Shown piece by piece: positions 7,789 through 21,587 of a DNA stretch of 64,000 nucleotides; the first letter of the stretch is position 1; the number at the start of each line of letters is the position of its first letter. Origin of the DNA: an uncultured Bacilli bacterium (GTDB lineage Bacteria; Bacillota_I; Bacilli_A; RF39; UBA660); the NCBI GenBank assembly GCA_910578855.1, contig CAJTRV010000001.1, positions 1,430 through 65,429 on the forward strand, written 5' to 3'. The notes beneath the pieces were generated by a model. The model was given only the letters and a program-made list of their open reading frames with translations, did no database searches and was not told the DNA's origin. The translations under genes were made by a program, and so were the position numbers.

Positions 7789-7866
7789 TAATAAATAAAT
7801 TAATATCTATTGATATAGAAATAAATCTATATCTTTTTTTATTACAAAAATATTTGTCAAAAAATA

Positions 7867-8763
7867 ATGAAGGGGGTTGATAAAATGACAAATGAAATTA
7901 TAAAAGTAGGAACTTTTTTTAGTGGAATAGGATCACCAGAAAAAGCTTTAGAAAGATTAAAAAACGAAGGACATATAAAAGATTATAAAGTAGAATTTTT
8001 TTCAGAAATAGATAAAAATGCAATTAAAAGTTATTGTGCGATTCATAATGTAGATGAAAGTTTAAATCTTGGTAGTATAACTGATATTAAAGGTAAAAAT
8101 TTACCATACTGTGATTTATGGATTGGCGGCTTTCCATGTCAAGATATATCTTGTGCTGGTAAAATGAGAGGATTTGATTTTACAAGTTCTACAAGATCAT
8201 CACTTGGTTGGGAAATGATTAGATTACTTAAAGAAGTAAAGATAAAACCTAAATATGTTATATTTGAAAACGTAGCTATGATAACAAGCAAGAAATTTAA
8301 GGAAACATTAAACTTATTTAAAGAAGATTTAGTAAGTTTAGGATATACATTATATGACCAATTATTAAGTGCTACTGATTATGGAATACCTCAAACTAGA
8401 GCGAGGTATTTTTTAGTTGCAATACTAGATAATCAAAAACAATTTAAATTTCCAGACAAAATGGAAAGTGATGTTATATTAAAGAATTTTCTTGAAGAAT
8501 TTGTTGATGAAAAATATTATTTAACAAATTCTAATTATATAGAAAAGGGCAATAAAAGGATATTTAAACATAAAAATAGAAATGATATAGAGTATGAGAT
8601 TGATATGGATAAATATTTAATTGGTGGTGTATGTGGAATAGATAAACATACTAAATTTGCAATCTCATCAAGGTTATTTTCTATTTATGGGAATTCGCCA
8701 ACTTTAACAGCAAGTAATACATCTGATAATAGCAAAATTGTTGTAGAAAGTGAGGTAGAATAA
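7867..8763 (+). CDS. DNA (cytosine-5)-methyltransferase, N-terminal/large part (motifs I-VIII + start of TRD)
   Basis: FSGIGS (motif I), EIDKNAIKSY (II), GGFPCQDIS (IV), ENV (VI), QTRARYF (VIII). Confidence 0.8.
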   Translation: MKGVDKMTNEIIKVGTFFSGIGSPEKALERLKNEGHIKDYKVEFFSEIDKNAIKSYCAIHNVDESLNLGSITDIKGKNLPYCDLWIGGFPCQDISCAGKMRGFDFTSSTRSSLGWEMIRLLKEVKIKPKYVIFENVAMITSKKFKETLNLFKEDLVSLGYTLYDQLLSATDYGIPQTRARYFLVAILDNQKQFKFPDKMESDVILKNFLEEFVDEKYYLTNSNYIEKGNKRIFKHKNRNDIEYEIDMDKYLIGGVCGIDKHTKFAISSRLFSIYGNSPTLTASNTSDNSKIVVESEVE

Positions 8764-8933
8764 TGAGAATAAGAAAACTTACTCCAAGAGAAACTTGGAG
8801 ATTAATGGGATTTAGCGATATAGACTTTGATAGAGCAAGTAAAGTATGTACTGAAACGAATTTATATCATCAGGCTGGAAATTCTATTGTAGTTAATGTA
8901 ATGTATTCGATTTTAAAAGAATTATTAAAATAA
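8763..8933 (+). CDS. DNA (cytosine-5)-methyltransferase, C-terminal small part (motifs IX-X). Separate frame, overlaps the upstream stop as TAATGA.
   Basis: MRIRKLTPRETWRLMGFSDIDFD (motif IX) and GNSIVVNV (motif X). SD-like gaggtag 7 nt upstream of the ATG. Too short for the ORF track (57 codons). Confidence 0.7.
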   Translation: MRIRKLTPRETWRLMGFSDIDFDRASKVCTETNLYHQAGNSIVVNVMYSILKELLK

Positions 8934-8940
8934 AAAGATG

Positions 8941-9204
8941 CTATTTTGCATCCTTGTTATTCTCCATAAGTTTTTCATAACCATCAAAAAATTTTCTAAT
9001 GTCAAAATTATATTTTTGAGATAAAAAGAAAAGGGTATCTAGTGAAATTCCTGTATCTACATTAGGACTTTCAATGTGAGATATAAAACTTCTACTCATA
9101 TCTGTATCTTCTGCCATTTTTTCTTGAGACTTACCAATTATATCTTTTCTTATGGATTTCATATTTTGTCCTATAAGGGCGAAAAGTTCATAAGTATTTT
9201 TCAC
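8941..9204 (-). CDS. XRE-family helix-turn-helix transcriptional regulator
   Basis: SQEKMAEDTDMSRSFISHIE HTH motif. Small. Convergent/adjacent to the methyltransferase. Confidence 0.6.
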   Translation of the reverse strand: MKNTYELFALIGQNMKSIRKDIIGKSQEKMAEDTDMSRSFISHIESPNVDTGISLDTLFFLSQKYNFDIRKFFDGYEKLMENNKDAK

Positions 9205-9346
9205 AAAAATCCCTCCTATATATAATTTTATAGGAAATATTGATTTTATACTGCTCTCTTATAAGGAGCAATTTTATTGCTCGGTATTAACAGTTTTGTG
9301 TTATAATTAAGTTGGCACGAAAAAAGAATACTTTAAATTGTATTCT

Positions 9347-9610
9347 TTATCGCCTAGGAATACGACGATTTTCAATATTTTTCCTTTTCTCAAATAATTG
9401 GAAAAGTTCAACATTAAGTGTAGTCGCGATGTGATCAATATAGTCGATTCTAGTATTTCTTTTAGCATTTTCCAAATTAGATACGTAAGTAGGTGTAGTT
9501 CCAAGCTTATCTGCAAAATCTTCTTGGGACCAACCATTTTGCAATCTATAGTAAACAATATTATTTGCTAAAATATTACGAGCACTTGATTTTAATTTAA
9601 TTGTCATCAC
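9347..9610 (-). CDS. XRE-family helix-turn-helix transcriptional regulator
   Basis: WSQEDFADKLGTTPTYVSNLENAKRNTRID is a classic HTH_3 pattern. Confidence 0.65.
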   Translation of the reverse strand: MMTIKLKSSARNILANNIVYYRLQNGWSQEDFADKLGTTPTYVSNLENAKRNTRIDYIDHIATTLNVELFQLFEKRKNIENRRIPRR

Positions 9611-9771
9611 ATCCTTCCTCTTACTTACTACTATTGTAATAAGTTTATGAAAATTGAACCATACTAACTATGTAGTAAGTTATTTAAATTATAGTGAATT
9701 AAAAAGGGAAAAAATGTTGGATTTTGTGCTAAAACAAAAAGGTAGATATTTTATAAGAAAAGGAGCTAGAT

Positions 9772-10260
9772 ATGAACAAAGAAAATTTAAATAGATATGT
9801 TAAAGAAATATCTGATGTTTTAGACGACAAAATTAAAATTATTACTTCAATTGAATATTACTATGATTTAGAAAAACTAGCATCTTCACTAAAAGATTTA
9901 TCTGATACCGAAGCTGAAAATGTTTTAGAACAATTAATCAATGAAAAACTAGAACAAATTAAGACAAGTGGTAAAGCAGATAAATTTAGAGAAAATAATA
10001 GACTTGTGGATGATGTAACTGAATTCTTCTATGAAAATAAGGAAGAAGATGTTGCCATTGTTGAAGAGGGAAGTTGCGTAGCAACAGATTTAATTTTAAA
10101 AACAATAGGTATAAATGGTAGAAAAATTGAATTACCAGTAAAGATTTCATATATAAAGGAATATTGTATAAGTAATATCATTGAGGAAAAAGATATAAGG
10201 AAAACGTTGTTGTGGATAGTTTTAGAACTATCAGTTGTAAGTTATTTTTTAAATAATTAA
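9772..10260 (+). CDS. Hypothetical protein
   Basis: ORF with RBS aaaggagc. No recognisable motif. Confidence 0.35.
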   Translation: MNKENLNRYVKEISDVLDDKIKIITSIEYYYDLEKLASSLKDLSDTEAENVLEQLINEKLEQIKTSGKADKFRENNRLVDDVTEFFYENKEEDVAIVEEGSCVATDLILKTIGINGRKIELPVKISYIKEYCISNIIEEKDIRKTLLWIVLELSVVSYFLNN

Positions 10261-10386
10261 AAATAATATATATAAGTAGTAGTAATTAGCAGTACCTGAA
10301 TCTACCTTTTTCAAGACACTTCTAATTCTATGGAAGTGTTTTATATTGTTAGTAATTTAAATTTATATAGATAAGGTTGTGATTTT

Positions 10387-10974
10387 ATGTTACAAGTTAG
10401 TAGAGCAAATAATCTTAAAATTCCAAAAACAATAGAAAATATTAGTGGAAATTTAAATAGTGTTGATGATAAGGTTGCAGTAAAACAAGCAATAGCTACA
10501 GCAAACAATCAAAAATTTGATAAGAAAAAAGTAAAAGAAAATGAAGAAAAGGATATGGAATTAGAAAGAATAGAAAAAATTCCATTTAATGCAAATGATT
10601 TAATGGTTATCACTGTTGTAAAAAAGCTAGGTGCTTATATAATTGCTGTTACTGAAAAATCTCCAGCTAAATATAGAGGTGTATTTGTTAATCGTATGCA
10701 AAATCTATCTTTAGAAATACTAGAATTACTTCTTCAAGCTAACTTTGTAAGAATTGATAGTTTAGATAATAAGAAAAAGAGAGAAGAATATCAAAAAGAT
10801 GCAATAATAAAATTAAAAATGTTAGGATATATAGCTATGGTGGCAGAAAATTCTAAATGTATATTATCTAAACAGTTTAAACAAATTTCGATTCAAATTG
10901 GTGAATCTATTAATTTAATAGCTGCTTGGAAAAAAAGCGACGATAATAGATGGAGTAGTCGTACAAATAATTAA
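10387..10974 (+). CDS. avd: Avd-like four-helix-bundle accessory protein of the DGR (possible true start at internal Met near 10555)
   Basis: C-terminal region KDAIIKLKMLGYIAMVAENSKCILSKQFKQISIQIGESINLIAAWKK resembles the Avd / 'S23 ribosomal-protein-like' four-helix-bundle family (LxxLGYI...EIGKML pattern). Basic. Located immediately upstream of TR-RT. Confidence 0.45.
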   Translation: MLQVSRANNLKIPKTIENISGNLNSVDDKVAVKQAIATANNQKFDKKKVKENEEKDMELERIEKIPFNANDLMVITVVKKLGAYIIAVTEKSPAKYRGVFVNRMQNLSLEILELLLQANFVRIDSLDNKKKREEYQKDAIIKLKMLGYIAMVAENSKCILSKQFKQISIQIGESINLIAAWKKSDDNRWSSRTNN

Positions 10975-11065
10975 AGGATTTTAAACCGAAAGGTTTTTAA
11001 TTAAGTAAATAATTTATTCTAGCGGCTTTACTTGTGTTGCGCCTTTGGCGCAGGGCTTTGTATTT

Positions 11066-11144
11066 GTCCGCGCGGTCAATAAGAATGGTAATAGGAACAA
11101 CAAATATAGGTATAAACGCAATGGTGCTGTTCGCCCAGATTTGC
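11066..11144 (+). repeat. DGR template repeat (TR)
   Basis: 79-bp near-identity to 12682..12760. Differs at 12 positions, all adenines in this copy (AAT/AAG/AAC/AAA codons). Confidence 0.85.
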
Positions 11145-11353
11145 TTTTGAAGAGATTTAATAATCTAAAAAACAGGTCAGAGAAATATATTTTAAGTAAA
11201 ATATATCAGAACTTTAAAGCAAAGGAATTATTTACTTTTCTAACCGCTATAATAGTGCGGTGGATAAATTTTTAACACCCACACAAGCAACGATAAAAAT
11301 ATCTTTGCAAGTTATAAGGGGTGTTTTTTTATTATTTATGGGGAGGATTTTTT

Positions 11354-12382
11354 ATGAAATTAGAAGAGATATTTACATTTGAAAATATATATAATGCCCA
11401 TAAAAAATGTAGAAGATCAAAACAACATAAAGGAGAAGTAATAAGATTTGAAGTAAATATTTCTGAAAATATTTGCAAATTACAAAAGGAAATAATATCA
11501 AAGAAATATAAAGTAGGAAAATATAAGGAATTTATAATATATGAACCAAAAGAAAGATTAATACAAGCTCTTCCATATAGAGATAGAATTGTATTAAGAT
11601 GTTTTTGCGATAATGTTTTAATTCCAAAGATTGAAAAAAAACTAATAAATGATAATGTTGCTTGTAGAAAAGGTAAAGGAACAAAATATGGAATGGATAG
11701 ATTGAAATATTTTTTACAAAAAGAATATTTTAAGAATAACGATAATAAAGTTTATTATTTGAAATGTGATATTCGTAAATATTTTCCTAGTATTAACCAC
11801 AATATTTTAATAAATAATCTAAAAAGGATTGGCTTTTCAGATGATGAATTTTGGTTTATAAACAAAATTATAAATGAACAACCTGATAATTTAGAAAAGG
11901 GTTTAGCATTAGGAAATCAATCAAGTCAATGGTTTGCTTTATATTATCTTGATAAAATTGATAGATTAATCAAAGAAAAACTTAAAGTTAAATGTTATGT
12001 TAGATATATGGATGATTTTATTTTAATTCATCGTGATAAAAAATATCTACAATATTGTTTGAAAATAATTAATAAAGTTTGTAATGAAGAATTAAATTTA
12101 GAACTTAATCAAAAAACTCAAATTGGTGTTGCCTATAATGGAATTGATTTTCTAGGATTTAATCATATTTTGACTGATAGTGGTAAAGTTATTAGAAAAC
12201 TTAGATTTTCATCTAAACAAAGAATGAGAAAACATATTAAAACTATAAAAAAACTTAAAGATAAATCTATAATTGATGAAGAATATGTTGGTATGAGAAT
12301 AAATGCTTTCAAAGCACATCTAAAATATTCTAATGAAAAAAGTATGGATAAATTATTATCAAATTTAGATAAAAACCTATAA
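11354..12382 (+). CDS. Diversity-generating retroelement reverse transcriptase
   Basis: RT motifs LKCDIRKYFPSINH (motif 3) and YVRYMDDFILI (YxDD). DGR-specific LGNQSSQ (I/LGxxxSQ in place of the group II intron QGxxxSP). About 340 aa. No maturase or endonuclease domains. RBS ggggagg precedes ATG 11354. Confidence 0.85.
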   Translation: MKLEEIFTFENIYNAHKKCRRSKQHKGEVIRFEVNISENICKLQKEIISKKYKVGKYKEFIIYEPKERLIQALPYRDRIVLRCFCDNVLIPKIEKKLINDNVACRKGKGTKYGMDRLKYFLQKEYFKNNDNKVYYLKCDIRKYFPSINHNILINNLKRIGFSDDEFWFINKIINEQPDNLEKGLALGNQSSQWFALYYLDKIDRLIKEKLKVKCYVRYMDDFILIHRDKKYLQYCLKIINKVCNEELNLELNQKTQIGVAYNGIDFLGFNHILTDSGKVIRKLRFSSKQRMRKHIKTIKKLKDKSIIDEEYVGMRINAFKAHLKYSNEKSMDKLLSNLDKNL

Positions 12383-12447
12383 AATTCAAAAAATAGTAAT
12401 AAAAAAATGAATTTATATGGTAAAATATAACTGTGGTGATGATTTAA

Positions 12448-14373
12448 ATGTATAATAATCAAGATTTAACTTTATTGTCGGAAGGACAAATTTGGGGGAA
12501 TGGTAATGAAGCCCAATTAGAAGTAATTAGAAAATATGGAACTAAGGCAGCAATTACAGATTTATGTGTTTTGACTGGTAGCTATTTATGTGAAGATACG
12601 GATTATAATATAGATGAAGATAGTTCATTAAAAGGTAGAACTAGTTGGTTTTGGACTAGATCTGATGATAATGACAATGATGTCCGCGCGGTCGATCGGG
12701 ATGGTACTAGGGACCACGAATGTAGGTATGAACGCATTGGTGCTGTTCGCCCAGCTTTGCAATCTTCTGTAATCTTTTCTCAAATCTCCCCGAACAGAGT
12801 GAGGGGATACAACGGAACTGAAGAAGTAGAATATGGTGAATATCCACAATATGCTGCTGATTCAAGAATGCAAAGTATATTAGAATCAGAATATAATAGG
12901 GGAATGAATAAAACAGGAAGAAGTTATACTTTTGATTCAGTAAAATATGACGATTATGATACTGGCTTTAAACCAGTGACTTATGAAGAATATGAATATC
13001 AAGGAAAAAAATATATTCGCATAAGGGCAAATTCTGATTTTGGTGGAAATAAATTTAAACTTTCAAATGGTATTGAATATAGAGATGGTGATTATGTTTG
13101 GGTAGAAGTATCACCTGTAAAATGGTTAATTGATGATAGAACAGGAATATTAATTTCAAAAAGAGGATTAGTTTCTGGAATAAGATTTCTTGATAAAAGA
13201 ACTAATTATAAAGGTGATTTTAGTAGAACAGAAATGAAGGAATATCTTGATAGATATATGATACGCGATTTAACTCAGACAGCAACATTTACTCGTGTTC
13301 AAGATATGACACCAGAAGAAAAAGCTCAATTTGAAGAAGAAAGAAAGCAAGCTGAAAAAAGAAGAAATCCTTATGGTTTAAAATTTGGACAAGTTAGTGA
13401 AGAAGAAATTATTAAAGGTGCAATAGAAAGTGGTGTTGCAGTATTCTTACATGGGCCTTCATCAGAAGGTAAATCTGCAAGAGTAAAGCAAATAGATCCT
13501 ACTTGTGAAATAATATATCTTCGTAATGCTACACCAGAAAGTTTAAATGGTAAAAGTGTATATAATCAATCAACAGGTGAGATGATGGATGTTCCACCAA
13601 CTTGGTTAAAGAAATTACAAGAAAAATGTGAAAAGGAACCTGATAGACTTCATGTAGTATTCTTTGATGAAATAACAAATGCACTACCTAGCATTCAAGG
13701 TATAGCATTTAATATAGTATTAGATAGAGAAGTTAATGGTATATGGAAATTGCCAGATAATGCTAGAATCGTTGCAGCAGGAAATGATATGAAAGATTCA
13801 TTAGCTGCAAATCAATTAGCAGAACCATTATTTAATAGATTTGCCCATGTTTATATTAAAACAACTACTGAGGGTTGGTTAAAATGGGCAAGTGAACATA
13901 ATATACATCCTGCTATTTACTCATATATTGCTTATAAAAAGGGCGAAACATTAAGAAGTAAATATGATGGTGAAAAACCTAACGCAGATCCAAGAAAATG
14001 GGAAATGGCTTCAAAAATGTTATATGCAACAGGAAGCCCTGAAATGTTAAGGGCGTTAGTTGGAGAGGATATTACAAGAGAATTTGTAGAATTCTGTAAT
14101 CAACAAGTTATAACATTAGATGATGTTATAAATGGAAATTATACCGATAGAGATATACAGGCATTAAATACTGCTGAAAGATATGCAACAACTATGGGAT
14201 TATCACAAGTTGATGATAATAACTTAGAAAAAGTAAGGGGTTTTGTTGCAGGTTTAGGAGCAGAGTTTGGAGCAATTTTTGATGCTTTATGGACACATGG
14301 CGATGAAAGTAAATTGGAAAGACTTGCAGAAGCAAAACTTGCTGAAATGCCAGGAGGAGGTATAAGAAGATAA
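12448..14373 (+). CDS. DGR target protein: N-terminal C-type-lectin-like variable domain fused to a MoxR/AAA_5-class AAA+ ATPase
   Basis: VR-encoded SWFWTRS...VRAVDRDGTRDHECRYERIGAVRPAL matches the DGR CLec consensus (WW.RS ... GVRP). The C-terminal half has Walker A LHGPSSEGKS, Walker B HVVFFDEITNA, sensor-1 RIVAAGN and PLFNRFAHVYI (the MoxR 'ALLDRF' motif). No signal peptide. Confidence 0.8.
   Translation: MYNNQDLTLLSEGQIWGNGNEAQLEVIRKYGTKAAITDLCVLTGSYLCEDTDYNIDEDSSLKGRTSWFWTRSDDNDNDVRAVDRDGTRDHECRYERIGAVRPALQSSVIFSQISPNRVRGYNGTEEVEYGEYPQYAADSRMQSILESEYNRGMNKTGRSYTFDSVKYDDYDTGFKPVTYEEYEYQGKKYIRIRANSDFGGNKFKLSNGIEYRDGDYVWVEVSPVKWLIDDRTGILISKRGLVSGIRFLDKRTNYKGDFSRTEMKEYLDRYMIRDLTQTATFTRVQDMTPEEKAQFEEERKQAEKRRNPYGLKFGQVSEEEIIKGAIESGVAVFLHGPSSEGKSARVKQIDPTCEIIYLRNATPESLNGKSVYNQSTGEMMDVPPTWLKKLQEKCEKEPDRLHVVFFDEITNALPSIQGIAFNIVLDREVNGIWKLPDNARIVAAGNDMKDSLAANQLAEPLFNRFAHVYIKTTTEGWLKWASEHNIHPAIYSYIAYKKGETLRSKYDGEKPNADPRKWEMASKMLYATGSPEMLRALVGEDITREFVEFCNQQVITLDDVINGNYTDRDIQALNTAERYATTMGLSQVDDNNLEKVRGFVAGLGAEFGAIFDALWTHGDESKLERLAEAKLAEMPGGGIRR
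12682..12760 (+). repeat. DGR variable repeat (VR) inside the target gene (codons about 79-104)
   Basis: Matches TR 11066..11144. Substitutions occur only where TR has A (a->g/c/t). Confidence 0.85.
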
Positions 14374-14765
14374 TGGAAAATAAAAAGGAAATATTATTGT
14401 CATATATAAGGACAAATGTTGCACCAATATTAGTTGATTTTATATCTGGTAAAGATTTGAATGGTGCAGTAGTATTGCCTGCTAATGTTGATGTTAAAGA
14501 ATTAAATGGTCATTATGATGGAGCAGATTTTATGCCACCAAAATGGCTTAATGAGATATTAAGTACAAATGCTAGTAAAATATTAGTAATAGATAAAATT
14601 GATACTATTTCAAAAGAAGAACAATTAAAATTTTGTGAATTATTAGAACATAGAAAAATATCTACATTTGAATTACCAAAAAGTTGTGTGATAATTGTAA
14701 CAGCAAACGAAATAAATAAAGATAAGATAAACGAAGAAATATTCTCATTAGTTGCACGAATTTGA
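14373..14765 (+). CDS. AAA-like domain fragment protein (Walker-B/sensor-1-like motifs, no Walker A). Translationally coupled to the DGR target.
   Basis: TAATG overlap at 14371-14375. KILVIDKID (hhhhD), CVIIVTAN (sensor-1-like). No GxxGxGKS. Confidence 0.4.
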   Translation: MENKKEILLSYIRTNVAPILVDFISGKDLNGAVVLPANVDVKELNGHYDGADFMPPKWLNEILSTNASKILVIDKIDTISKEEQLKFCELLEHRKISTFELPKSCVIIVTANEINKDKINEEIFSLVARI

Positions 14766-14775
14766 GGTATAAATT

Positions 14776-16386
14776 ATGAAATATGATATTGCAGCGTTAA
14801 AAAGAAAAATGCTTGTTAAATATCCCTTTTTTGGGAGTGTGGTAGCAAGTGTAGGTTATAAAGAAAACAAAGATATACCAACCGCAGGTACAGATGGAGA
14901 AACAATTTACTATAATCCTGAATATTTGGAAAGTTTAAGTGTTGAAGAACAGACTTTTATATTTGCTCATGAAGTATGTCATATTGCATTTAATCATATA
15001 TTAAGAAGTGAAGATAAAGATCCAGATTTATGGAATATTGCTACTGATGGTGTTATTAATCAATTTTTGAAACGAGATGGATTAAAAATGGCGCCGGGTG
15101 GAGTTGATATGGCAGAAGCTATTAATTACGATGCTGAACAGTTATATGAAAAACTATTACAAGAAAAACAGCAAAGACAACAGCAACAACAAACTGGACA
15201 AGGTAATAGTCAAAATCAACAAGGTAATCAGCAACAAAATCAACAACAAAGCGGTGGTAGTAGTCAAGGCGAAAATAACCAACAACAACCCCAATCACAA
15301 CAACAGAGTGGCGATTCACAAAATCAAGAACAAAATCAAGAAAATCAACAACAAAGTAGTGGTGGGGGGCAAAGTGGTGATGACCAACAGCAATCTCAAT
15401 CACAACAACAAGGTAGTTCAGGTGATGAAAGTTCACAAGAGCAAGATAAGCAATCACAAGAACAAAGCAGTGGTGGAACTGGGAAAGATTCACAAGAGGA
15501 AGATAAATCAAAACAAGATGTTGGACATGATACTCACAGCATGTGGGAACAAGCAGTTAAAAAGCATAAAGAGCAGCAAGAAAAATCTGATAAAAAAGAG
15601 AGTTTATTAGATAAGTTGTTAGGGAAAGATAAAGATAAAAAAGATAAAGAAAAAACTGAGCTTGAAAAGAAACAAGAAGAACTTGCAGAAATGGGAGAAA
15701 AAGATGCTTTTAAGAAAAATCTTGAAGATAAGAAAAAGCAACTTGAAGAATTAAAAGAAGCAATTTCTAAACAAGCATCACAAGCAGGAACTTCAACAAA
15801 TAGAGATGTTAGAACAGTTAATGATATTGGTACTGCAAAACCAATAGTTGATTGGCGATATATTTTAAGAGAAGCAATTAAATATGATGTAGATTGGTCA
15901 TATAAAAATGCTACATTAGAAGATGGTGTTGTTACTGCTAATTTAGAAGAACAACCAATGCCAGAAACTGAAATTGTTCTTGATACAAGTGGCTCAATAA
16001 ATGAAGTATTATTAAAGAACTTTTTAAGAGAATGTAAAAATATATTACAACATACTAAATTAAAAGTAGGATGTTTTGATACAGAATTTTATGGATTTCA
16101 AGAGATTAGAGCAGAAGAAGATATAGAAAATATGCGATTTGAAGGTGGTGGCGGTACTGACTTTGATGTCGCTGTAGGTGCTTTCTCAAGGCGAGTTGAA
16201 AATAAAATAATATTTACTGATGGAGAAGCTTCAATGCCGGATATGCCACTTGATGCAATATGGATAGTATTTGGTGGTGAAAGAATTAATCCTAAAGGTG
16301 GTAAAGTAATTCACATTACACCAGAACAATTGGATAGATTATATTCATACGAAATTGGGAGTGAAACCAGAGGAAGATCAAGATAA
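14776..16386 (+). CDS. Metallopeptidase-like (DUF2201-type HExxH) + von Willebrand factor A domain protein with central Q/S/N-rich disordered linker
   Basis: HEVCHIAFNH (HExxH), long polyQ/S segment, C-terminal VWA with MIDAS DTSGS...T...D. This is the family that pairs with MoxR AAA+ ATPases. Confidence 0.7.
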   Translation: MKYDIAALKRKMLVKYPFFGSVVASVGYKENKDIPTAGTDGETIYYNPEYLESLSVEEQTFIFAHEVCHIAFNHILRSEDKDPDLWNIATDGVINQFLKRDGLKMAPGGVDMAEAINYDAEQLYEKLLQEKQQRQQQQQTGQGNSQNQQGNQQQNQQQSGGSSQGENNQQQPQSQQQSGDSQNQEQNQENQQQSSGGGQSGDDQQQSQSQQQGSSGDESSQEQDKQSQEQSSGGTGKDSQEEDKSKQDVGHDTHSMWEQAVKKHKEQQEKSDKKESLLDKLLGKDKDKKDKEKTELEKKQEELAEMGEKDAFKKNLEDKKKQLEELKEAISKQASQAGTSTNRDVRTVNDIGTAKPIVDWRYILREAIKYDVDWSYKNATLEDGVVTANLEEQPMPETEIVLDTSGSINEVLLKNFLRECKNILQHTKLKVGCFDTEFYGFQEIRAEEDIENMRFEGGGGTDFDVAVGAFSRRVENKIIFTDGEASMPDMPLDAIWIVFGGERINPKGGKVIHITPEQLDRLYSYEIGSETRGRSR

Positions 16387-16518
16387 TTAAGGTTTGGGAC
16401 AAATAGTTCTAAATCTTTTTAATTTTGTAATTCACCTTTATATATAGGGAAAATTAATATTTTGTGTTATAATTAAATTGTACGATTAGGGCTTATTAAT
16501 TATAGGTATATTAAAGGA

Positions 16519-17979
16519 TTGAGTGATAGTATGAGAATAGGTTTAGATATAGATAATGTTGTAACCAATTTTGATAAAAAAATGTTAGAAGAATTTTATA
16601 AAGAAGATAAAAACAAAAGAAATAAGGGAATAGTTAATCCAGAAGGAAATTGGATTAAAAATATGTTTGATTGGTCAAATGATGAAATAGAGACCTTTTT
16701 TAATGACAATATGCAAGAATTTGCTAAAGAGTTAGAACCTAGAGAAGATGCTAAATATTATATGGATAAATTATTGGATGATGGGCATAGTTTATATTTA
16801 ATTTCACATAGAGCTTATCCACATTATACTGAACCATATAAAATTACTGAAAACTGGTTAAAAAAAAATAATATAAATTATACAAAATTAATACTTTCTA
16901 AAACTACAAATAAAAGTAAAGAATGTAAGGAAAATAACATTGATGTAATGTTTGATGATGTTAGAACTAATTGTCATCAATTGCAAGAAAGTGGTATTAA
17001 ATGTTATTTAATGGGAACAAACTATAATCAAAAAAAATTAGATGGATTAAAAGTAGTGAAAAATTGGAAGGAACTATATGAGGTGGTTAATAAAATGGAA
17101 AAGAAAAAAGTAATATTAGATACAGATATGTATAATGAAATAGATGATCAATTTGCATTAACTTATTTAATTAAATCATTGAATATTTTTGATTTACAAG
17201 CAATCACAATAGCTCCATTTTCAAAAAGTGGTTATGCTAATACTATGACTATTGAAGATGGAACAGAAAAAAGTTATGAGACAACTTTAAAAATATTAGA
17301 TATGTTGGATAAATCTGAATATAAAGATTTAGTATATAAGGGTGCAATAAAATATATGAAAGATAGTGAAGAAGATAATGATGCTGTAAATAAAATAATT
17401 GAAATATCAAATAAAAATGAAAAAACAACTATTTTAGCTATTGGAGCAATAACAAATGTTGCATTAGCTATTAAGAAAGCACCTGAAATTATTAGCAAAA
17501 TAAATGTAGTATGGTTAGGTGGTAATACTTTCTTAACTAAAGATAATAGTGAATTTAATTTTAGACAAGATATAAAAGCAGTACAAACAGTATTTAATTC
17601 AGGCGTTGAATTAGTTGTTATTCCATGTAGAAATGTTGCTTCTAATTTATCAACTACAATTTATGAATTACAACATTATTTAAGTGAGAATACAGAATTA
17701 AATAAATATTTAATTGATATTTTTATTAAGTGCAAAAAATCATTTATGAAAGAACCTAAAGATGAAATAGGTTCTAGTAAAACATTATGGGATCTAAGTG
17801 CAATAGCTTATGAGATAAATGCAGATTGGTTTAAATCTGAAATGATAAGTTGTCCTAATGTTCTTGATAATGGTTTATATGAACAAACAGAAAACAGACA
17901 TAATGTAATATTTGTGAATGATTTATATCGCAATAAAATATATCAAGATTTCTTTATTAAAATGGGATATAAAATTTAG
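16519..17979 (+). CDS. Fusion protein: HAD-type 5'(3')-deoxyribonucleotidase-like domain + inosine-uridine-preferring nucleoside hydrolase domain
   Basis: N-terminal GLDIDNVV (DxDxV HAD motif I). C-terminal LDTDMYNEIDDQFAL matches the nucleoside hydrolase DxDxxxDD signature. Confidence 0.6.
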   Translation: MSDSMRIGLDIDNVVTNFDKKMLEEFYKEDKNKRNKGIVNPEGNWIKNMFDWSNDEIETFFNDNMQEFAKELEPREDAKYYMDKLLDDGHSLYLISHRAYPHYTEPYKITENWLKKNNINYTKLILSKTTNKSKECKENNIDVMFDDVRTNCHQLQESGIKCYLMGTNYNQKKLDGLKVVKNWKELYEVVNKMEKKKVILDTDMYNEIDDQFALTYLIKSLNIFDLQAITIAPFSKSGYANTMTIEDGTEKSYETTLKILDMLDKSEYKDLVYKGAIKYMKDSEEDNDAVNKIIEISNKNEKTTILAIGAITNVALAIKKAPEIISKINVVWLGGNTFLTKDNSEFNFRQDIKAVQTVFNSGVELVVIPCRNVASNLSTTIYELQHYLSENTELNKYLIDIFIKCKKSFMKEPKDEIGSSKTLWDLSAIAYEINADWFKSEMISCPNVLDNGLYEQTENRHNVIFVNDLYRNKIYQDFFIKMGYKI

Positions 17980-18016
17980 AATAACTAGATACTAATATTG
18001 TGTAGAGGGTGATTAG

Positions 18017-18541
18017 ATGAAAGTATATATAGTAAGACATGGTCAAGTTTCACATAATGCTTTGAATCAATATAATACGAGTGATGAAGATTTAACAGAT
18101 TTAGGAATAAAGCAAGCAGAAGAATTAAGAAGCAAAATTCAAAATATACATTTTGATATTGTTATATCATCGCCATTATTAAGAGCTACTCATACAGAAT
18201 ACATACTTACAAATTATGATAATAGTATAATTACTGATGAAAGGTTAAGAGAAAGAAGCTGTGGTACTTTAAGTGGACAACCACTTGAAGTTACGAATAG
18301 AGAAGAATATTGGAATTATTATAGTGATGTTCAATATGGTATAAATGAAAATATACAAGATTTCTTTAAAAGAGTTTATAATTTTTTAGATGATCTTAAA
18401 ACAAAAGATTATAAAAGTGTTTTAATAGTTGCTCATAGTGGAGTTTCAAAAGCTTTTAGTGGTTATTTTGAAGGGATAAAGGATGGCAAATTTTTAAACA
18501 GAGGATTAAAAAATTGTGAAATTAAGGAGTATGAATTATGA
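18017..18541 (+). CDS. Histidine phosphatase superfamily (phosphoglycerate mutase-like) protein
   Basis: VRHGQ (RHG catalytic motif) at the N-terminus. About 175 aa. Confidence 0.65.
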   Translation: MKVYIVRHGQVSHNALNQYNTSDEDLTDLGIKQAEELRSKIQNIHFDIVISSPLLRATHTEYILTNYDNSIITDERLRERSCGTLSGQPLEVTNREEYWNYYSDVQYGINENIQDFFKRVYNFLDDLKTKDYKSVLIVAHSGVSKAFSGYFEGIKDGKFLNRGLKNCEIKEYEL

Positions 18542-19158
18542 AATTAACCAGTAAAGAAGCAAGAGAATTTTTAGAAAATGAAAGAGCCAATTTTGAAAAT
18601 CAAAGATGGATAAATCATAGTGTTTGTGTAGGAGATACTGCTGGTAAAATTGCTGAAGCTTTGTATAAAAAAGATATTAATGTAGATATTGATAAAACAA
18701 TTGCATTAGGGTATATTCATGATATTGGCAAAAAATTTAATGAACATGGAGGAGTATTTCCACATGCAATAAATGGGTATAACTATATTAAAGAATTAGG
18801 ATATGATGAAGAATATGCAAGTATTTGTATTAAACATTCATTTCTAAACAATGATATAGATTGTATATCAAACGATAGAGATGAAACTGATAAATCTAAT
18901 CCTAATTATAATTTTGTAAAAGAATATATAAGCAAAGAATATAGTATTGAGGAAAAAATAATTAATTTATGTGATTTAATGTGTATAACTAAAACATTAA
19001 CTGTAGAAAAAAGAATGATAGATTTATTACTAAGGCATGGAGTATTTAAAAAGACACATTATCATATAGAAGAAACTATGAAATTAAAAGAATATTTTGA
19101 TGATTTATTAGGATATAATTTATATGATTTATTTCCAGAAATTAAAGATAATCTATAG
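18538..19158 (+). CDS. HD-domain phosphohydrolase
   Basis: H...YIHDIGK (HD motif). ATGA overlap with the upstream gene. Confidence 0.55.
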   Translation: MKLTSKEAREFLENERANFENQRWINHSVCVGDTAGKIAEALYKKDINVDIDKTIALGYIHDIGKKFNEHGGVFPHAINGYNYIKELGYDEEYASICIKHSFLNNDIDCISNDRDETDKSNPNYNFVKEYISKEYSIEEKIINLCDLMCITKTLTVEKRMIDLLLRHGVFKKTHYHIEETMKLKEYFDDLLGYNLYDLFPEIKDNL

Positions 19159-19169
19159 TTGGTGGTATT

Positions 19170-19772
19170 ATGACTATAAAAGATATGAAACAAGCTGTTA
19201 AGCTTTTAGAAAATGAATGGGATTTGGGAGAAAAGGAATCGGGAGCATCAAGGCATCTATGTGCATGGATTTACTTGATGGAAATATTAGAAGAAACCGA
19301 ACAATTTGTGTATTATAGAGAGAATGGTAATCTTTTAGGATTTGCTGGATATTCTAATGATAAATCAAAAAAGCATCTATTAAAAAAGAAATTTTATTCA
19401 TTTATAAAAAAACAATTGTATAAAAGCAAAGAAATAAAAGATATAAAAGCATTACATGAGTATGAAGATAATTACTACTATGTACCAGATGAATTGAAAA
19501 ATTACTTTGATGGAGAAGTATCTATGCTAATAATTGATGAAAAAATAAGAGGCAAAGGAATTGGAAAAAAATTACTTTTAGAAGTATTCGCTCTAGCTAA
19601 AAAAGATAATATGAAAAATCTTCAAATACTAACTGATGATTCTTGCAATTATTATATATATGAGTCATTAGGATGTAAGAAAGTATATGAAACAGTAATA
19701 GAAAATAAAGAATATGGTAAATTAGGTAATATTACAAAGGAAACTGCTTATATTTATGAAAAAGTATTATAA
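19170..19772 (+). CDS. GNAT-family N-acetyltransferase
   Basis: IRGKGIGKKLL (acetyl-CoA binding motif A). Confidence 0.55.
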   Translation: MTIKDMKQAVKLLENEWDLGEKESGASRHLCAWIYLMEILEETEQFVYYRENGNLLGFAGYSNDKSKKHLLKKKFYSFIKKQLYKSKEIKDIKALHEYEDNYYYVPDELKNYFDGEVSMLIIDEKIRGKGIGKKLLLEVFALAKKDNMKNLQILTDDSCNYYIYESLGCKKVYETVIENKEYGKLGNITKETAYIYEKVL

Positions 19773-19889
19773 ATTAGTGAAATAATATTCCCTATGAAAA
19801 AGGATATAGTAAAAAATTAGAAAATAATTAGTTCTATTGACTAATTTATACTAAACTATTATAATAATCTACCGAAATGAGGCGATTTT

Positions 19890-20531
19890 ATGTCAAGAGA
19901 ACAAAATGTAATAAATTATTATGTTATATGTAATAGATTAAAAAATGTTATCAGAACTGGTTGGAAAAATTGGAATGTGCAAAGAGAAAGAATTGAAAGT
20001 GTTGCGGAGCATATATTTGGTGTTCAAATGCTTGCAATTGCAATGAAGTCAGAGTATCAATATGATGTTGATATAATGAAAGTTATATTTATGCTAGCGA
20101 TACATGAACTTGGTGAAACAGTTATAGGCGACTTAACTCAATTTGAAATATCCAAAGAGGAAAAGGAAAAATTAGAGCATGAAGCAGTGCATAGAATATT
20201 AGGCGGTTTATTAGATGGTAACCAAATTGAAGCATTATTTTTAGAATTTGATTCCCATAGTACAAAAGAATCTATGTTTGCATATCAATGTGATAAGTTG
20301 GAATGTGATTTACAAAGTAAATTATATGATGAAGAAGGTTGTGTTGATTTAGATAAACAGGATGGTAATGAAACAATGAAAAATTCAAGAGTTCAAGAAT
20401 TGTTAAAAACAGGTGCTTCATGGTCAACTATGTGGCTTCAATTTGGACAACAAGTTTATCCATACGATGATAATTTTAGAGCAGTTTCTAATTATGCTAT
20501 AAATAATGAAATAGGTCCAAAAAGGAAATAA
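19890..20531 (+). CDS. HD-domain 5'-deoxynucleotidase (YfbR-like)
   Basis: SVAEHIF...AIHELGETVIGDLT: the H..HE/D..D metal-binding pattern of YfbR-type HD hydrolases. Confidence 0.6.
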   Translation: MSREQNVINYYVICNRLKNVIRTGWKNWNVQRERIESVAEHIFGVQMLAIAMKSEYQYDVDIMKVIFMLAIHELGETVIGDLTQFEISKEEKEKLEHEAVHRILGGLLDGNQIEALFLEFDSHSTKESMFAYQCDKLECDLQSKLYDEEGCVDLDKQDGNETMKNSRVQELLKTGASWSTMWLQFGQQVYPYDDNFRAVSNYAINNEIGPKRK

Positions 20532-20550
20532 AAAGTATTAAGTTTAAAAA

Positions 20551-20591
20551 TGCAAACTTGCACAAAAACCAAAAAAATATGCAAAATTGCA
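20551..20591. promoter_or_regulatory. Two copies of inverted-repeat operator TGCAA-N2-TTGCA (tgcaaacttgca, tgcaaaattgca) overlapping a TTGACA -35-like element
   Basis: Seen directly. Same motif recurs at 21576..21587 and 24500..24531. Confidence 0.5.
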
Positions 20592-20657
20592 TTTTTTATA
20601 TTGACAAAAAACTTAAATTGTTATAGTATATAAAACAATTCAAAAGGGGGAGATTCT

Positions 20658-21521
20658 ATGTTAAATACTCAATCTATGAATCTTGATTTAATTAGAACCT
20701 TTGTAATTGTTGGTCAATCTAGGGATTATAATGACGCTGCTTCAAAGTTAAATATGGATAGATCTAATGTATCAAGACATATTAAAACTCTTGAAGAATT
20801 AATGGGAACTAAATTAATAAATAAAAATGCTAAAAACTATATTGAATTAACAGAAGATGGTAAGGTGTTATTTGATGGATATGAAAAAGCATACAATTTA
20901 TTATTTATTACTGAAAAGACATATTTACAAAATAAAGACTTAAATAGTGGTAAAATATCAATTGGTATTTCTAGTGATATAGAATCTAAAATTTTAATTG
21001 ATAAAATAGTAGATTTTAAAAAGAAATATGCTGATACAGCATTTAAAACAATAAATTTACCTTCAAAAAGTTTAGTAGAAAAGTTATCACATTATACACT
21101 TGACTTTGTTATAGATGAAAAATCAGATAGTTATAAGAAAAGTAGTGGTGTTAAATCTATAGATTTATTTGATGAAGAATACTGTCTAGTATATTCAAAA
21201 AATAATTTTGCTATTTCAGATATTTCAGATTTAAAAGATCTTTCATTTATATTACCTGTTAGTACAAAACAAGAAAGAAAATTATTTGAAGAATATTTAA
21301 GTGATAATCAAATAACAAGAAGATTATCTATAGAAACATCTAATTATTTTTCTTCAATCGAATATGCTAAGAATGGATTAGGAGTAGCTTTAGTTCCTAA
21401 AAGTATGATAGTTGATGAATTAGAAGTTTTTGATATTGATTTAAAAAAGACTATCACATTAAGTTATGTTGAGAATAATTTATCACCATCATCAAAAGAG
21501 TTTTTGAAAGAATTTAAATAA
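20658..21521 (+). CDS. LysR-family transcriptional regulator
   Basis: N-terminal HTH (LIRTFVIVGQSRDYNDAASKLNMDRSNVSRHIKTLEE) plus substrate-binding-domain-sized C-terminus. Confidence 0.7.
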   Translation: MLNTQSMNLDLIRTFVIVGQSRDYNDAASKLNMDRSNVSRHIKTLEELMGTKLINKNAKNYIELTEDGKVLFDGYEKAYNLLFITEKTYLQNKDLNSGKISIGISSDIESKILIDKIVDFKKKYADTAFKTINLPSKSLVEKLSHYTLDFVIDEKSDSYKKSSGVKSIDLFDEEYCLVYSKNNFAISDISDLKDLSFILPVSTKQERKLFEEYLSDNQITRRLSIETSNYFSSIEYAKNGLGVALVPKSMIVDELEVFDIDLKKTITLSYVENNLSPSSKEFLKEFK

Positions 21522-21575
21522 TATACTAAAAATATTTATAATCTAATTTCAATTTTGAAGTTAGATTTTTTTTAA

Positions 21576-21587
21576 TGCAATTTTGCA
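21576..21587. promoter_or_regulatory. Operator copy TGCAA-TT-TTGCA upstream of the radical SAM gene
   Basis: tgcaattttgca, followed by a ttgact/-10-like region. Confidence 0.45.

What the first reader, a model, noticed from the sequence alone, without database searches (positions are those of the whole stretch)
12448..16386. DGR-diversified lectin domain fused to a MoxR-class AAA+ ATPase, operonic with a Walker-A-less AAA-like ORF and a metallopeptidase-like/VWA partner: a cytoplasmic variable-sensor remodelling module
DGR targets are normally secreted or surface proteins with the VR at the extreme C-terminus. Here the diversified CLec-like VR lies at residues about 79-104, near the N-terminus of a 641-aa protein with no signal peptide. 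Its C-terminal half is an AAA_5/MoxR-type ATPase (Walker A LHGPSSEGKS, Walker B VVFFDEITNA, sensor-1 IVAAGN, PLFNRFAHVYI). It is translationally coupled (TAATG) to a 130-aa AAA-like ORF that keeps Walker-B/sensor-like motifs but lacks a P-loop. This is followed by a protein with an HExxH DUF2201-type domain, a long polyQ/S disordered linker and a VWA domain with an intact MIDAS (DTSGS). MoxR-VWA pairs are established chaperone/adaptor systems (RavA-ViaA, CbbQ-CbbO, NorQ-NorD). Coupling such a pair to a hypervariable binding domain suggests an intracellular system whose substrate specificity is continuously re-diversified. One plausible role is an ICE-borne anti-phage/anti-MGE sensor-effector, analogous in logic to DGR-linked STAND NTPases. 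I am not aware of this architecture having been characterised.
Basis: partly seen in the sequence, partly recalled or inferred. Interest (0 to 1): 0.92.

Follow-up and report, generated by a model that had tools for sequence, protein, structure and literature searches.

The report
DGR-diversified lectin–MoxR ATPase protease cassette
Uncultured gut Bacilli carry a three-gene cassette whose AAA+ motor protein has an N-terminal lectin-like binding domain that a retroelement keeps rewriting; it is most likely a cytoplasmic sensor and protease module, and a new variant of a predicted but untested kind of system.

Summary
An 80-nt TR (11065-11144) matches a VR (12681-12760) with 12 mismatches, all at TR adenines. 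The VR encodes residues 79-104 of a 641-aa protein with no signal peptide or transmembrane segment. [quoted passage not shown]

It is followed by a 130-aa AAA core paralogue that lacks a P-loop. Next comes a DUF2201 protein with a conserved HExxH zincin motif, a Q/S-rich linker and a VWA domain with a complete MIDAS.

The three genes form a conserved cassette in at least 75 species, mostly uncultured gut Bacilli, in unrelated genomic contexts. Only 12 of 54 assessable loci have an intact RT; 11 more keep RT fragments. Tandem paralogues differ in the N-terminal 300 residues while the ATPase stays 96-100% identical, so that region sets specificity.

The ATPase and the peptidase-VWA protein are homologues of a widespread phage gene pair that lacks the N-terminal module.

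DGR-linked MoxR-vWA systems and AAA-fused DGR targets are already in the literature, but only as predictions. I rate this a new variant of a known kind. The function is inferred, not shown.

The parts
10387..10974 (+). Avd accessory protein of the DGR (195 aa)
   Evidence: PHROG phrog_3206 'Avd protein of DGR', E 2.8e-14. Pfam bAvd E 1.4e-5 and NCBIfam DivGenRetAVD E 1.1e-5, both below their cut-offs.
11065..11144 (+). Template repeat (TR), 80 nt, between avd and the RT gene. In the VR reading frame it encodes VRAVNKNGNRNNKYRYKRNGAVRPDL, rich in AAY/AAR codons.
   Evidence: A GC-rich hairpin at 11031-11054 lies just 5' of it.
11321..12382 (+). DGR reverse transcriptase (353 aa). It carries LGNQSSQ (the [LIV]GxxxSQ motif typical of DGR RTs) and YMDD.
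   Evidence: RVT_1 E 1.2e-16. PADLOC RT E 1.1e-34. phrog_1423 E 1.3e-105. Motifs read from the translation.
12448..14373 (+). Target gene: 641-aa protein made of an N-terminal CLec-like domain, a beta-rich middle domain, a MoxR-like AAA+ core and a C-terminal helical domain.
   Evidence: AF2 model with mean pLDDT 87.5. More than 3000 full-length homologues at 92-100% identity. 75 species loci.
12448..12777 (+). N-terminal domain (aa 1-110). It is DUF6273-like and corresponds to the C-terminal, CLec-like half of that Pfam domain. Predicted order of elements: strand, three short helices, four strands.
12681..12760 (+). Variable repeat (VR), encoding aa 79-104. It covers predicted strands E78-82, E88-92 and E102-105 and the loops between them.
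   Evidence: The 3'-most difference (TR GAT, VR GCT at 12754) is the same in all 8 DGR loci compared, so it is a fixed IMH-like difference and not mutagenesis.
12778..13347 (+). Middle beta-rich domain and helical linker (aa 111-300), with conserved EVEYGEYPQ and VSPVKWL motifs. It diverges together with the N-domain between tandem paralogues.
   Evidence: No significant Pfam match.
13405..13872 (+). AAA+ alpha/beta core (aa 320-475). Walker A lies at 13453-13476 and Walker B at 13654-13674. Also present: sensor-1 IVAAGN, Arg-finger motif PLFNRF, a helix-2 insert hairpin (E369-373/E378-382) and a pre-sensor-1 hairpin.
13873..14370 (+). C-terminal helical region (aa 476-641): the AAA+ lid plus an extension. 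It carries the invariant NADPRKWE motif, which I infer to be sensor-2-like.
   Evidence: It is covered by the phage ATPase matches.
14373..14765 (+). 130-aa degenerate AAA+ core paralogue. The P-loop is deleted, Walker B is reduced to VIDKID, and the gene is translationally coupled to the target gene.
   Evidence: hhalign to target aa 320-467: probability 93%, E 2.7e-7, 123 columns. phrog_1297 E 6e-4. Present in 63 of the 76 sources clustered (75 loci plus the window). TAATG overlap.
14776..16386 (+). 536-aa zincin-VWA protein. The DUF2201_N peptidase spans 14797-15357, with HEVCH at 14968-14982. A Q/S/K/E-rich low-complexity linker spans about 15157-15945. The VWA domain spans 15973-16317, with MIDAS DTSGS at 15982-15996.
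   Evidence: Pfam. phrog_1314 E 5e-67. Motif conservation and length range 381-761 aa. Repeats in the linker. Weak match of the HExxH region to the minimal metallopeptidase MJ1213, E 0.04.
16389..16417 (+). Terminator-like hairpin with a T tract, closing the operon. Homology with other species ends at 16386.
9772..10260 (+). 162-aa ORF of unknown function found upstream of avd in 7 loci. It is a possible part of the DGR unit; this is uncertain.
   Evidence: No family match.

Best explanation
This is a self-contained cytoplasmic recognition-and-proteolysis cassette.

Shown:
- The 641-aa protein is a MoxR-type AAA+ ATPase. Its N-terminal 300 residues (a DUF6273/CLec-like domain plus a beta-rich domain) are the variable part of the system.
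- In this lineage a DGR rewrites 26 codons of the lectin-like domain by adenine mutagenesis.
- In other lineages the same region is diversified by tandem paralogues or by replacement of the whole cassette.

Inferred:
- The N-terminal module binds a variable macromolecule, most probably a protein of a phage or other mobile element.
- The ATPase assembles as a ring, perhaps together with the P-loop-less 130-aa paralogue.
- The ring engages the VWA domain of the partner protein in the way NorQ engages NorD.
- ATP hydrolysis pulls or twists the long disordered linker. This activates or positions the N-terminal zincin peptidase, which then cleaves the bound ligand or a host target.

The outcome would be immunity or interference whose specificity is continually re-drawn.
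For: DGR and VR activity. All catalytic motifs are under purifying selection: Walker A 82/82, Walker B 81/82, HExxH 95-100%, MIDAS 100%.

The N-terminal module is the specificity determinant. Tandem paralogues differ there while the ATPase is nearly identical. In L037 the N-domain is 35% and the middle domain 47% identical, against 99% for the AAA core; in L045 it is 65% against 100%; in L026 it is 68-82% against 96-100%. The cassette was replaced at a fixed chromosomal site: in L057 it is 53% identical while the downstream genes are 93-97% identical.

Synteny of the three genes is strict in about 63-69 of 75 loci, with unrelated flanks. There is no signal peptide or transmembrane segment. The MoxR fold and a VWA partner are present.

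NorQ remodels a linker of NorD through a VWA finger inserted in its pore (PMC13036017). Published predictions of DGR/CLec sensors working with MoxR-vWA-peptidase conflict systems are in PMC7159879 and PMC10907252. In this window the island travels with a C5 methyltransferase and two XRE regulators.
Against: There is no experimental evidence for any member. No operon protein matches a PADLOC defence model at E below 0.03. Most flanks are housekeeping genes rather than recognisable defence islands.

The closest relatives of the ATPase and of the peptidase-VWA protein are phage genes (phrog_1297 and phrog_1314, in about 600-700 phage genomes). Those genes have been proposed to work in virion assembly (PMC7824862), which is a chaperone role and not an immune one.

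Most cassettes have no DGR. The ligand, the ring assembly, the role of the 130-aa protein and the peptidase substrate are all inferred. The CLec fold of the N-domain is supported only by weak sequence matches and by secondary structure. I could not run a fold search on that domain alone.
Confidence: 0.45

Rival explanations
1. Dedicated chaperone or assembly factor. Like RavA-ViaA, CbbQ-CbbO, NorQ-NorD and the phage MoxR/zincin-vWA pair, the cassette would mature or process a specific protein complex. The N-terminal lectin-like module would be a substrate adaptor that tracks a fast-evolving host or prophage substrate.
For: The best structural matches are the chaperone-type MoxR ATPases NorQ and CbbQ. 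There is strong homology to a phage ATPase and zincin-VWA pair, which has been proposed to act in virion assembly with peptidolytic processing (PMC7824862). Many cassettes sit among housekeeping genes.
Against: A dedicated chaperone has a fixed client. Here the client-binding module is hypermutated by a DGR, duplicated into divergent tandem arrays and swapped between strains. No conserved candidate client gene accompanies the cassette. The phage homologues lack the N-terminal module altogether.
Confidence: 0.2
2. The cassette serves a mobile element rather than the host. On this reading it is cargo of an ICE, IME or prophage. It recognises and degrades variable host factors, such as recipient defence proteins or competing elements, so it would act in counter-defence or exclusion.
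For: The window carries an ICE-like region at 27-57 kb. L024 and L021 share both the DGR island and an ICE-proximal segment. In L004 and L013 a protein that reads as a MobV-type relaxase lies upstream of the DGR; I judged this from the sequence alone and did not scan it. In L081 the whole unit sits right after the tail, holin and endolysin genes of a predicted prophage. The ATPase and VWA-peptidase come from phage gene families.
Against: Only 1 of the 22 confirmed matches in the scan of 2.9 million viral contigs carries the full-length protein. Megablast found no phage or plasmid match. Most loci show no mobility genes within 8 kb. The borders of the ICE in the window were not determined, so whether the cassette lies inside it is not shown.
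Confidence: 0.15
3. Signalling or regulatory sensor. The variable lectin-like domain would bind a small molecule, glycan or self protein, and the ATPase-peptidase would process a regulator, as proposed for cyanobacterial DGR targets. No conflict role would be involved.
For: CLec folds bind varied ligands. DGR targets in cyanobacteria have been interpreted as tuning regulatory pathways (PMC7517822). Two XRE regulators lie in the co-inherited block.
Against: Nothing in the operon resembles a regulator, kinase or nucleotide-signalling domain. Tandem arrays and cassette swapping fit an arms race better than tuning of a pathway.
Confidence: 0.1

Closest known systems
DGR-associated MoxR-vWA 'VMAP ternary' conflict systems (Kaur et al. 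2020, PMC7159879; Dore et al. 2024, PMC10907252); predicted only
   Same: A DGR diversifies a CLec-type domain that is genetically coupled to a MoxR AAA+ ATPase, a vWA/MIDAS protein and a peptidase. The components are predicted to be cytoplasmic. The proposed logic is sensor, then ATPase, then effector.
   Different: In those systems the CLec/FGS domain is C-terminal and fused to the vWA protein or to a separate target, and the peptidase (trypsin or caspase type) sits on a third VMAP protein. They occur in multicellular cyanobacteria, gammaproteobacteria and actinobacteria. Here the CLec-like domain is N-terminal and fused to the ATPase itself, a zincin is fused to the vWA protein, and the third gene is a P-loop-less AAA fragment. 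The hosts are small-genome gut Bacilli.
Phage MoxR-like ATPase plus metallopeptidase-vWA pair (phrog_1297 and phrog_1314; N4-like and jumbo phages; Iyer et al. 2021, PMC7824862)
   Same: The ATPase (aa 320-608, E 1e-46) and the whole zincin-linker-VWA protein (E 5e-67) are homologous to this pair. The two genes lie close together in phage genomes.
   Different: The phage ATPases are about 340-400 aa and lack the N-terminal 300 residues. They have no 130-aa partner and no DGR. Their function is also unknown; virion assembly has been proposed.
NorQ-NorD, CbbQ-CbbO and RavA-ViaA MoxR/VWA chaperone pairs
   Same: These are the best solved structural matches of the ATPase core. The partner has a MIDAS-bearing VWA domain joined by a linker that the ATPase can remodel (PMC13036017).
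   Different: Sequence identity is only 12-16%. Those pairs have a fixed client and no variable binding domain, and their VWA partner carries no peptidase.
Tentaclins and other DUF6273 DGR targets of gut phages (Baykov et al. 2023, PMC10743442; bioRxiv 10.1101/2024.10.15.618418)
   Same: A DUF6273/CLec-like domain at the N-terminus of the protein carries the VR, which forms a beta-hairpin with flanking loops.
   Different: Tentaclins are virion receptor-binding proteins with Ig-like domains. Here the domain is fused to a cytoplasmic ATPase and matches only the C-terminal half of DUF6273.
AAA/Midasin-like and STAND NTPase DGR targets (Wu et al. 2018, PMC5758913; Paul et al. 2017 as cited in PMC10907252)
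   Same: A DGR-diversified domain on the same polypeptide as a P-loop NTPase, read as sensor plus transducer.
   Different: Those are CPR, DPANN or cyanobacterial proteins, described with the variable region C-terminal to the NTPase. I could not read Paul et al. 2017 directly.

Membership tests
Diversity-generating retroelement (DGR) | TR/VR pair whose differences fall at TR adenines | tested here: met
   12 of 12 mismatches fall at A. Across loci, 21/26 A positions are changed against 0/51 non-A positions.
Diversity-generating retroelement (DGR) | Reverse transcriptase of the DGR type next to the TR | tested here: met
   RVT_1, PADLOC RT and phrog_1423 matches. LGNQSSQ and YMDD were read. No DGR-specific RT phylogeny was made.
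Diversity-generating retroelement (DGR) | Avd accessory protein | tested here: met
   phrog_3206 E 2.8e-14. The Pfam and NCBIfam matches are below their cut-offs.
Diversity-generating retroelement (DGR) | Ongoing diversification in natural populations | tested here: met
   The VR columns are the most variable among near-identical homologues. VRs differ while TRs are conserved across species. Heterogeneity within a single sample was not tested.
Diversity-generating retroelement (DGR) | IMH and a hairpin or cruciform 3' of the VR | tested here: inconclusive
   A fixed TR/VR difference (GAT/GCT) lies at the 3' end in all 8 loci compared. No inverted repeat of 6 nt or more lies within 120 nt downstream of the VR.
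C-type-lectin-like VR scaffold (Pfam DUF6273) | Profile match above the Pfam cut-off | tested here: not met
   The query scores 17.3 bits against a cut-off of 23.5, E 0.0045, and matches only profile positions 112-168 of 172. 12 of 55 relatives match, and relative P0221 passes the cut-off.
C-type-lectin-like VR scaffold (Pfam DUF6273) | CLec fold of the VR-bearing domain | tested here: inconclusive
   The predicted strand, helices, four-strand order at pLDDT 82-97 is compatible with a CLec fold. Only whole-chain fold searches were possible, and AAA+ hits fill every list.
MoxR-class AAA+ ATPase | Walker A, Walker B, sensor 1 and Arg-finger motifs | tested here: met
   GPSSEGKS, FFDE, AAGN and PLFNRF are conserved in 81-82 of 82 members.
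MoxR-class AAA+ ATPase | Fold closest to solved MoxR proteins, with helix-2 insert and pre-sensor-1 hairpins | tested here: met
MoxR-class AAA+ ATPase | Pfam AAA_5 or AAA_3 above the gathering score | tested here: not met
   AAA_5 scores 15 bits against a cut-off of 22. 24 of 46 relatives match AAA_5 at E below 0.1, best 4.4e-7.
MoxR-class AAA+ ATPase | Adjacent VWA partner with an intact MIDAS | tested here: met
   DUF2201 VWA domain with D403xS405xS407, T461 and D482 conserved at 100%.
MoxR-class AAA+ ATPase | Hexamer formation and ATPase activity | not testable with these tools
   This needs biochemistry or a multimer structure prediction.
VMAP ternary system (Kaur et al. 2020) | Third component carrying a VMAP domain | tested here: inconclusive
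   The third gene is a degenerate AAA core. No Pfam family at E below 0.01 was found in it or in the other operon proteins beyond those listed. The authors' own VMAP profiles were not available.
Phage ATPase / zincin-VWA pair (phrog_1297 + phrog_1314) | Both proteins match the two PHROG families | tested here: met
   E 1e-46 and E 5e-67. tblastn matches in 692 and 595 phage records.
Phage ATPase / zincin-VWA pair (phrog_1297 + phrog_1314) | Same domain architecture as the phage members | tested here: not met
   No phage match covers aa 1-210. 21 of 22 viral-contig matches cover only the ATPase.
Known anti-phage defence systems (PADLOC-DB 2.0.0) | Match of any operon protein to a defence model | tested here: not met
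   Only chance-level matches (E at or above 0.036) for the three cassette proteins. The RT matches generic RT models.

The most novel reading that the evidence does not exclude
The cassette is a minimal, programmable cytoplasmic immune machine. A ring of MoxR ATPase subunits would each carry a DGR-rewritable lectin-like 'antibody' domain, and the ring would mechanically switch on a tethered zincin protease when the domains capture a foreign protein. This would be the first case where the hypervariable sensor and the motor are one polypeptide. It would also show that DGR-driven adaptive recognition operates in unicellular, genome-reduced gut bacteria, not only in multicellular lineages.
Probability: 0.3. 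Interest if true: 0.85.

Novelty: new variant of a known kind. Interest (0 to 1): 0.62.

Why it matters
If the inferred mechanism holds, the sensor (a DGR-diversified lectin-like domain) is physically fused to the transducer (a MoxR ATPase). That makes the published but untested 'sensor-MoxR-effector' model of DGR-linked conflict systems directly testable in a compact three-gene unit of about 4 kb.

It would also extend such systems from multicellular cyanobacteria and proteobacteria to very common, uncultured, small-genome gut Bacilli.

It gives a functional lead for a phage gene pair (phrog_1297 and phrog_1314) that is present in hundreds of phage genomes and partly mislabelled 'HNH endonuclease'.

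As a tool, it suggests a DGR-evolvable binding domain coupled to an ATP-driven protease.

Tried and rejected
- The first structure prediction used 40 near-identical homologues and failed (pLDDT 40). It was repeated with 46 diverse relatives (pLDDT 87.5).
- A profile of the N-domain found nothing meaningful among PDB sequences.
- Idea: the middle domain is the N-terminal half of a permuted DUF6273. Only one of ten middle domains gave a hint (E 0.16), so this is not supported.
- Suspicion that the 130-aa ORF is fused in other assemblies, because its 90% cluster holds 788-aa members. Those members are PheT, so this is a clustering artefact.
- Megablast of the locus against phages and plasmids found no match.
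- A search for a hairpin 3' of the VR found none.
- PADLOC and NCBIfam gave nothing for the three cassette proteins.
- The second homologue search, with the N-domain profile, returned mostly gene fragments and added little.
- The small ORFs between the phage ATPase and VWA genes are not homologues of the 130-aa protein.
- Paul et al. 2017 could not be read.

Full report
OBSERVATION

The window is low-GC (25-30%) DNA from a gut metagenome scaffold. At 10387-16386 all genes lie on the + strand in this order: avd (10387-10974), an intergenic TR, an RT gene (11321-12382), a 641-aa ORF (12448-14373), a 130-aa ORF (14373-14765) and a 536-aa ORF (14776-16386).

TR 11065-11144 and VR 12681-12760 are 80 nt long and differ at 12 positions, every one an adenine in the TR. 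Given 26 A in 80 nt, this happens by chance about once in a million. The RT carries LGNQSSQ and YMDD and matches RT families strongly. The avd product matches the PHROG 'Avd protein of DGR'.

The VR encodes residues 79-104 of the 641-aa protein. More than 3000 database proteins are 92-100% identical to it over the full length. In a sample of 40, the ten most variable columns are residues 83-97.

In three species that share a nearly identical TR, 21 of 26 TR-adenine positions are altered in at least one VR, and none of 51 other positions is altered. A second trio gives 19 of 28 against 2 of 72. The DGR is therefore real, and it has been active across species.

THE TARGET PROTEIN

Pfam finds nothing significant in this sequence; AAA_5 scores E 0.026. 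An AlphaFold model built on 46 diverse relatives is confident, with mean pLDDT 87.5.

- Motifs. Walker A, Walker B, sensor 1 and the PLFNRF arginine motif are conserved in 81-82 of 82 family members from genomes.
- Closest sequence family. This is a phage ATPase family, phrog_1297, at E 1e-46 over residues 320-608.
- N-terminal domain. Residues 1-110 are predicted as one strand, three short helices and four strands, and the VR covers the last three strands and their loops. Residues 48-104 match the C-terminal part of Pfam DUF6273 weakly (E 0.0045). 12 of 55 related N-domains match it, best E 1.6e-6. One relative matches the whole DUF6273 profile above threshold, with this domain as its C-terminal half.
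- What DUF6273 is. It is described as a C-type-lectin-like DGR target domain, including an N-terminal VR in phage tentaclins (PMC10743442; bioRxiv 10.1101/2024.10.15.618418).
- Limit of the fold test. I could not test the fold of this domain separately, because only whole-chain searches were available.
- Middle domain and localisation. Residues 111-300 form a beta-rich domain with no family match. No signal peptide or hydrophobic segment is present in any of the three proteins.

THE PARTNERS

The 130-aa ORF overlaps the target's stop codon (TAATG). It aligns to the AAA core of the target (residues 320-467) with the P-loop deleted: hhalign probability 93%, E 2.7e-7.

The 536-aa protein has a DUF2201_N zincin domain, a Q/S/K/E-rich repetitive linker and a DUF2201 VWA domain. 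HExxH and all five MIDAS residues are 95-100% conserved in 62 homologues, while protein length varies from 381 to 761 aa. The only terminator-like hairpin follows at 16389-16417.

DISTRIBUTION

One scan of species-representative genomes returned 240 confirmed matches, of which the best 80, collapsing to 75 distinct loci, were kept. Most are uncultured gut Bacilli, labelled Tenericutes/Mycoplasmatota or 'Clostridium sp. CAG'. Some are Clostridia such as Zhenpiania hominis.

The order target, 130-aa ORF, zincin-VWA is kept in nearly all loci. The most distant members lack the 130-aa gene. Flanking genes are unrelated from locus to locus, and the ones I read are housekeeping genes.

Nucleotide homology with DGR-less relatives begins within the last 30 nt of the RT gene and ends at the stop codon of the VWA gene. 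The three genes are therefore the unit.

Of 54 loci with enough upstream sequence, 12 have a full RT, 11 have RT fragments and 31 have none. Clear adenine-biased TR/VR pairs, always at the same N-terminal site, occur in about a dozen loci whose target proteins are as little as 53% identical to this one.

THE SPECIFICITY MODULE

Eleven loci with full-length copies hold two to five tandem copies of the target gene, and in eight of them the copies differ. Where copies differ, they differ in the N-terminal and middle domains, while the ATPase core remains 96-100% identical in all but two arrays (90% in L031, 81% in L066). In L037 the figures are 35% and 47% against 99%.

In L057 the whole cassette is only 53% identical to this one, yet the next two genes are 93-97% identical.

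The N-terminal module also occurs on an unrelated C-terminal half in a stand-alone gene.

There are thus three routes to varying the first 300 residues on a constant motor: the DGR, paralogue arrays and cassette replacement.

RELATIVES IN PHAGES

The ATPase part and the zincin-VWA protein have homologues in about 690 and 595 phage genomes, including N4-like and jumbo phages. None covers residues 1-210. In phage PA5oct the two genes lie about 3 kb apart.

Iyer et al. 2021 noted this MoxR plus metallopeptidase-vWA pair and proposed a role in virion assembly (PMC7824862).

Of the 22 confirmed matches from the 2.9 million viral contigs, one has the full-length protein. There it comes with avd and RT and lies directly after the lysis genes at the contig end.

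CONTEXT IN THE WINDOW

On the left lie nusA, infB and rbfA. At 27-57 kb there is an ICE-like region with a VirB4-like ATPase, a coupling protein and a serine recombinase.

The block 7647-16386 (methyltransferase, two XRE regulators, orf162, the DGR and the cassette) is shared with L023. L024 shares 7851-16387 and L021 shares 8934-16390, and both of these also share an ICE-proximal segment. ICE carriage is possible for this sublineage but is not shown, and it is not general.

INTERPRETATION

Shown:
- An active DGR.
- A MoxR-like ATPase with an N-terminal hypervariable domain.
- A degenerate AAA partner.
- A zincin-VWA partner with intact catalytic and MIDAS motifs.
- Strict operon conservation.
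- Diversification concentrated in the first 300 residues.

Inferred:
- The N-terminal module binds a variable foreign macromolecule.
- The ATPase ring engages the VWA domain and works on the linker, as NorQ does on NorD (PMC13036017).
- This controls the zincin.

I hold the conflict or immunity reading at about 0.45. The main rivals are a client-specific chaperone (0.2), a function serving a mobile element (0.15) and a regulatory sensor (0.1).

The main evidence against the conflict reading is the lack of any match to known defence models, the housekeeping flanks, and the phage ancestry of the motor-protease pair.

COMPARISON WITH THE LITERATURE

The general idea is published, but only as prediction. 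Kaur et al. 2020 and Dore et al. 2024 describe CLec or FGS domains fused to vWA proteins, or separate DGR targets next to MoxR ATPases. Dore et al. also cite CLec-AAA fusions in CPR bacteria. Wu et al. 2018 list rare N-terminal VRs and Midasin-like AAA targets.

I found no description of this particular arrangement: sensor at the N-terminus of the MoxR ATPase, zincin on the VWA partner, a P-loop-less AAA gene in between, in gut Bacilli. The library searched is incomplete, however.

VERDICT

This is a new variant of a known kind, with interest 0.62.

Noticed in passing
window 27082-57113: ICE-like region: SpaA/thioester-domain adhesin (27082-29865), VirB4/TraG-like ATPase (33281-35758), M23 peptidase (35758-36765), type IV coupling protein (51897-54200) and large serine recombinase (55056-57113), followed by tyrS. 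Its left border, and whether it includes the DGR island, were not determined.
   Followed up: partly
window 7647-16386; L023, L024, L021: An 8.7-kb block (C5 cytosine methyltransferase, two divergent XRE regulators, orf162, the DGR and the cassette) is shared at 82-92% nucleotide identity with three other species and has different flanks in each. L024 and L021 also share window 26022-27330.
   Followed up: partly
window 9772-10260: A 162-aa ORF with no family match lies directly upstream of avd in 7 DGR loci. It may be an unrecognised DGR accessory gene.
   Followed up: no
window 11031-11054: A GC-rich hairpin (TTGCGCC...GGCGCAG) lies 10 nt upstream of the TR. Its role is unknown.
   Followed up: no
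window 11138 / 12754: The 3'-most TR/VR difference (TR GAT, VR GCT) is identical in all 8 DGR loci compared. It is a fixed difference, probably part of an IMH embedded in coding sequence, rather than a product of mutagenesis.
   Followed up: partly
L057:58-6113: This cassette is only 53% identical in protein to the window's, yet the downstream nucleotidase/nucleoside-hydrolase and histidine-phosphatase genes are 93-97% identical. The cassette has been replaced at one chromosomal site.
   Followed up: partly
L002, L005, L006, L009, L012, L029, L030, L034, L056, L059 and L072, upstream of the target gene: RT gene fragments of 27-248 codons occur upstream of the target gene. All lack a detectable TR except L072, which keeps its TR/VR. 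This suggests repeated decay of the DGR next to an intact cassette.
   Followed up: partly
L026, L032, L020, L037, L066 and others: Tandem arrays of two to five target-gene paralogues share one or two copies of the partner genes. In L032 four nearly identical copies all carry a VR-like site next to one DGR whose TR/VR mismatches are only 11 of 18 at adenines.
   Followed up: partly
phage records H26-H50; phrog_1314: Homologues of the zincin-VWA protein are annotated 'HNH endonuclease' in PHROGs and in many Vibrio phage records. This looks like a propagated misannotation of an HExxH metallopeptidase-VWA protein.
   Followed up: no
L081:1-13616 (IMGVR_UViG_3300006217_003178): This is the only viral contig with the full-length family. 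Avd, RT, target, the 130-aa ORF and zincin-VWA lie at the contig end, just after the tail, holin and endolysin genes. The unit is either prophage cargo or flanking host DNA.
   Followed up: partly
L080:2421-4199 (P0198): A stand-alone 592-aa protein has the N-terminal plus middle module (66% identical to aa 4-285) joined to an unrelated C-terminal half with no family match. It has no partner genes.
   Followed up: partly
protein cluster of window 14373-14765: The 90%-identity cluster that holds the 130-aa protein has a 788-aa phenylalanyl-tRNA synthetase beta chain as its representative. This is a clustering artefact that could mislead automated annotation.
   Followed up: yes
window 16519-24344: A run of nucleotide-metabolism-type genes lies between the cassette and the ICE-like region: an NT5C/nucleoside-hydrolase fusion, a histidine phosphatase, two HD-domain proteins, a GNAT, a LysR regulator, a radical-SAM-like ORF and a NUDIX protein. 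The GNAT, LysR, second HD and radical-SAM labels are my reading of the translations and were not scanned. The run is variable between species.
   Followed up: no
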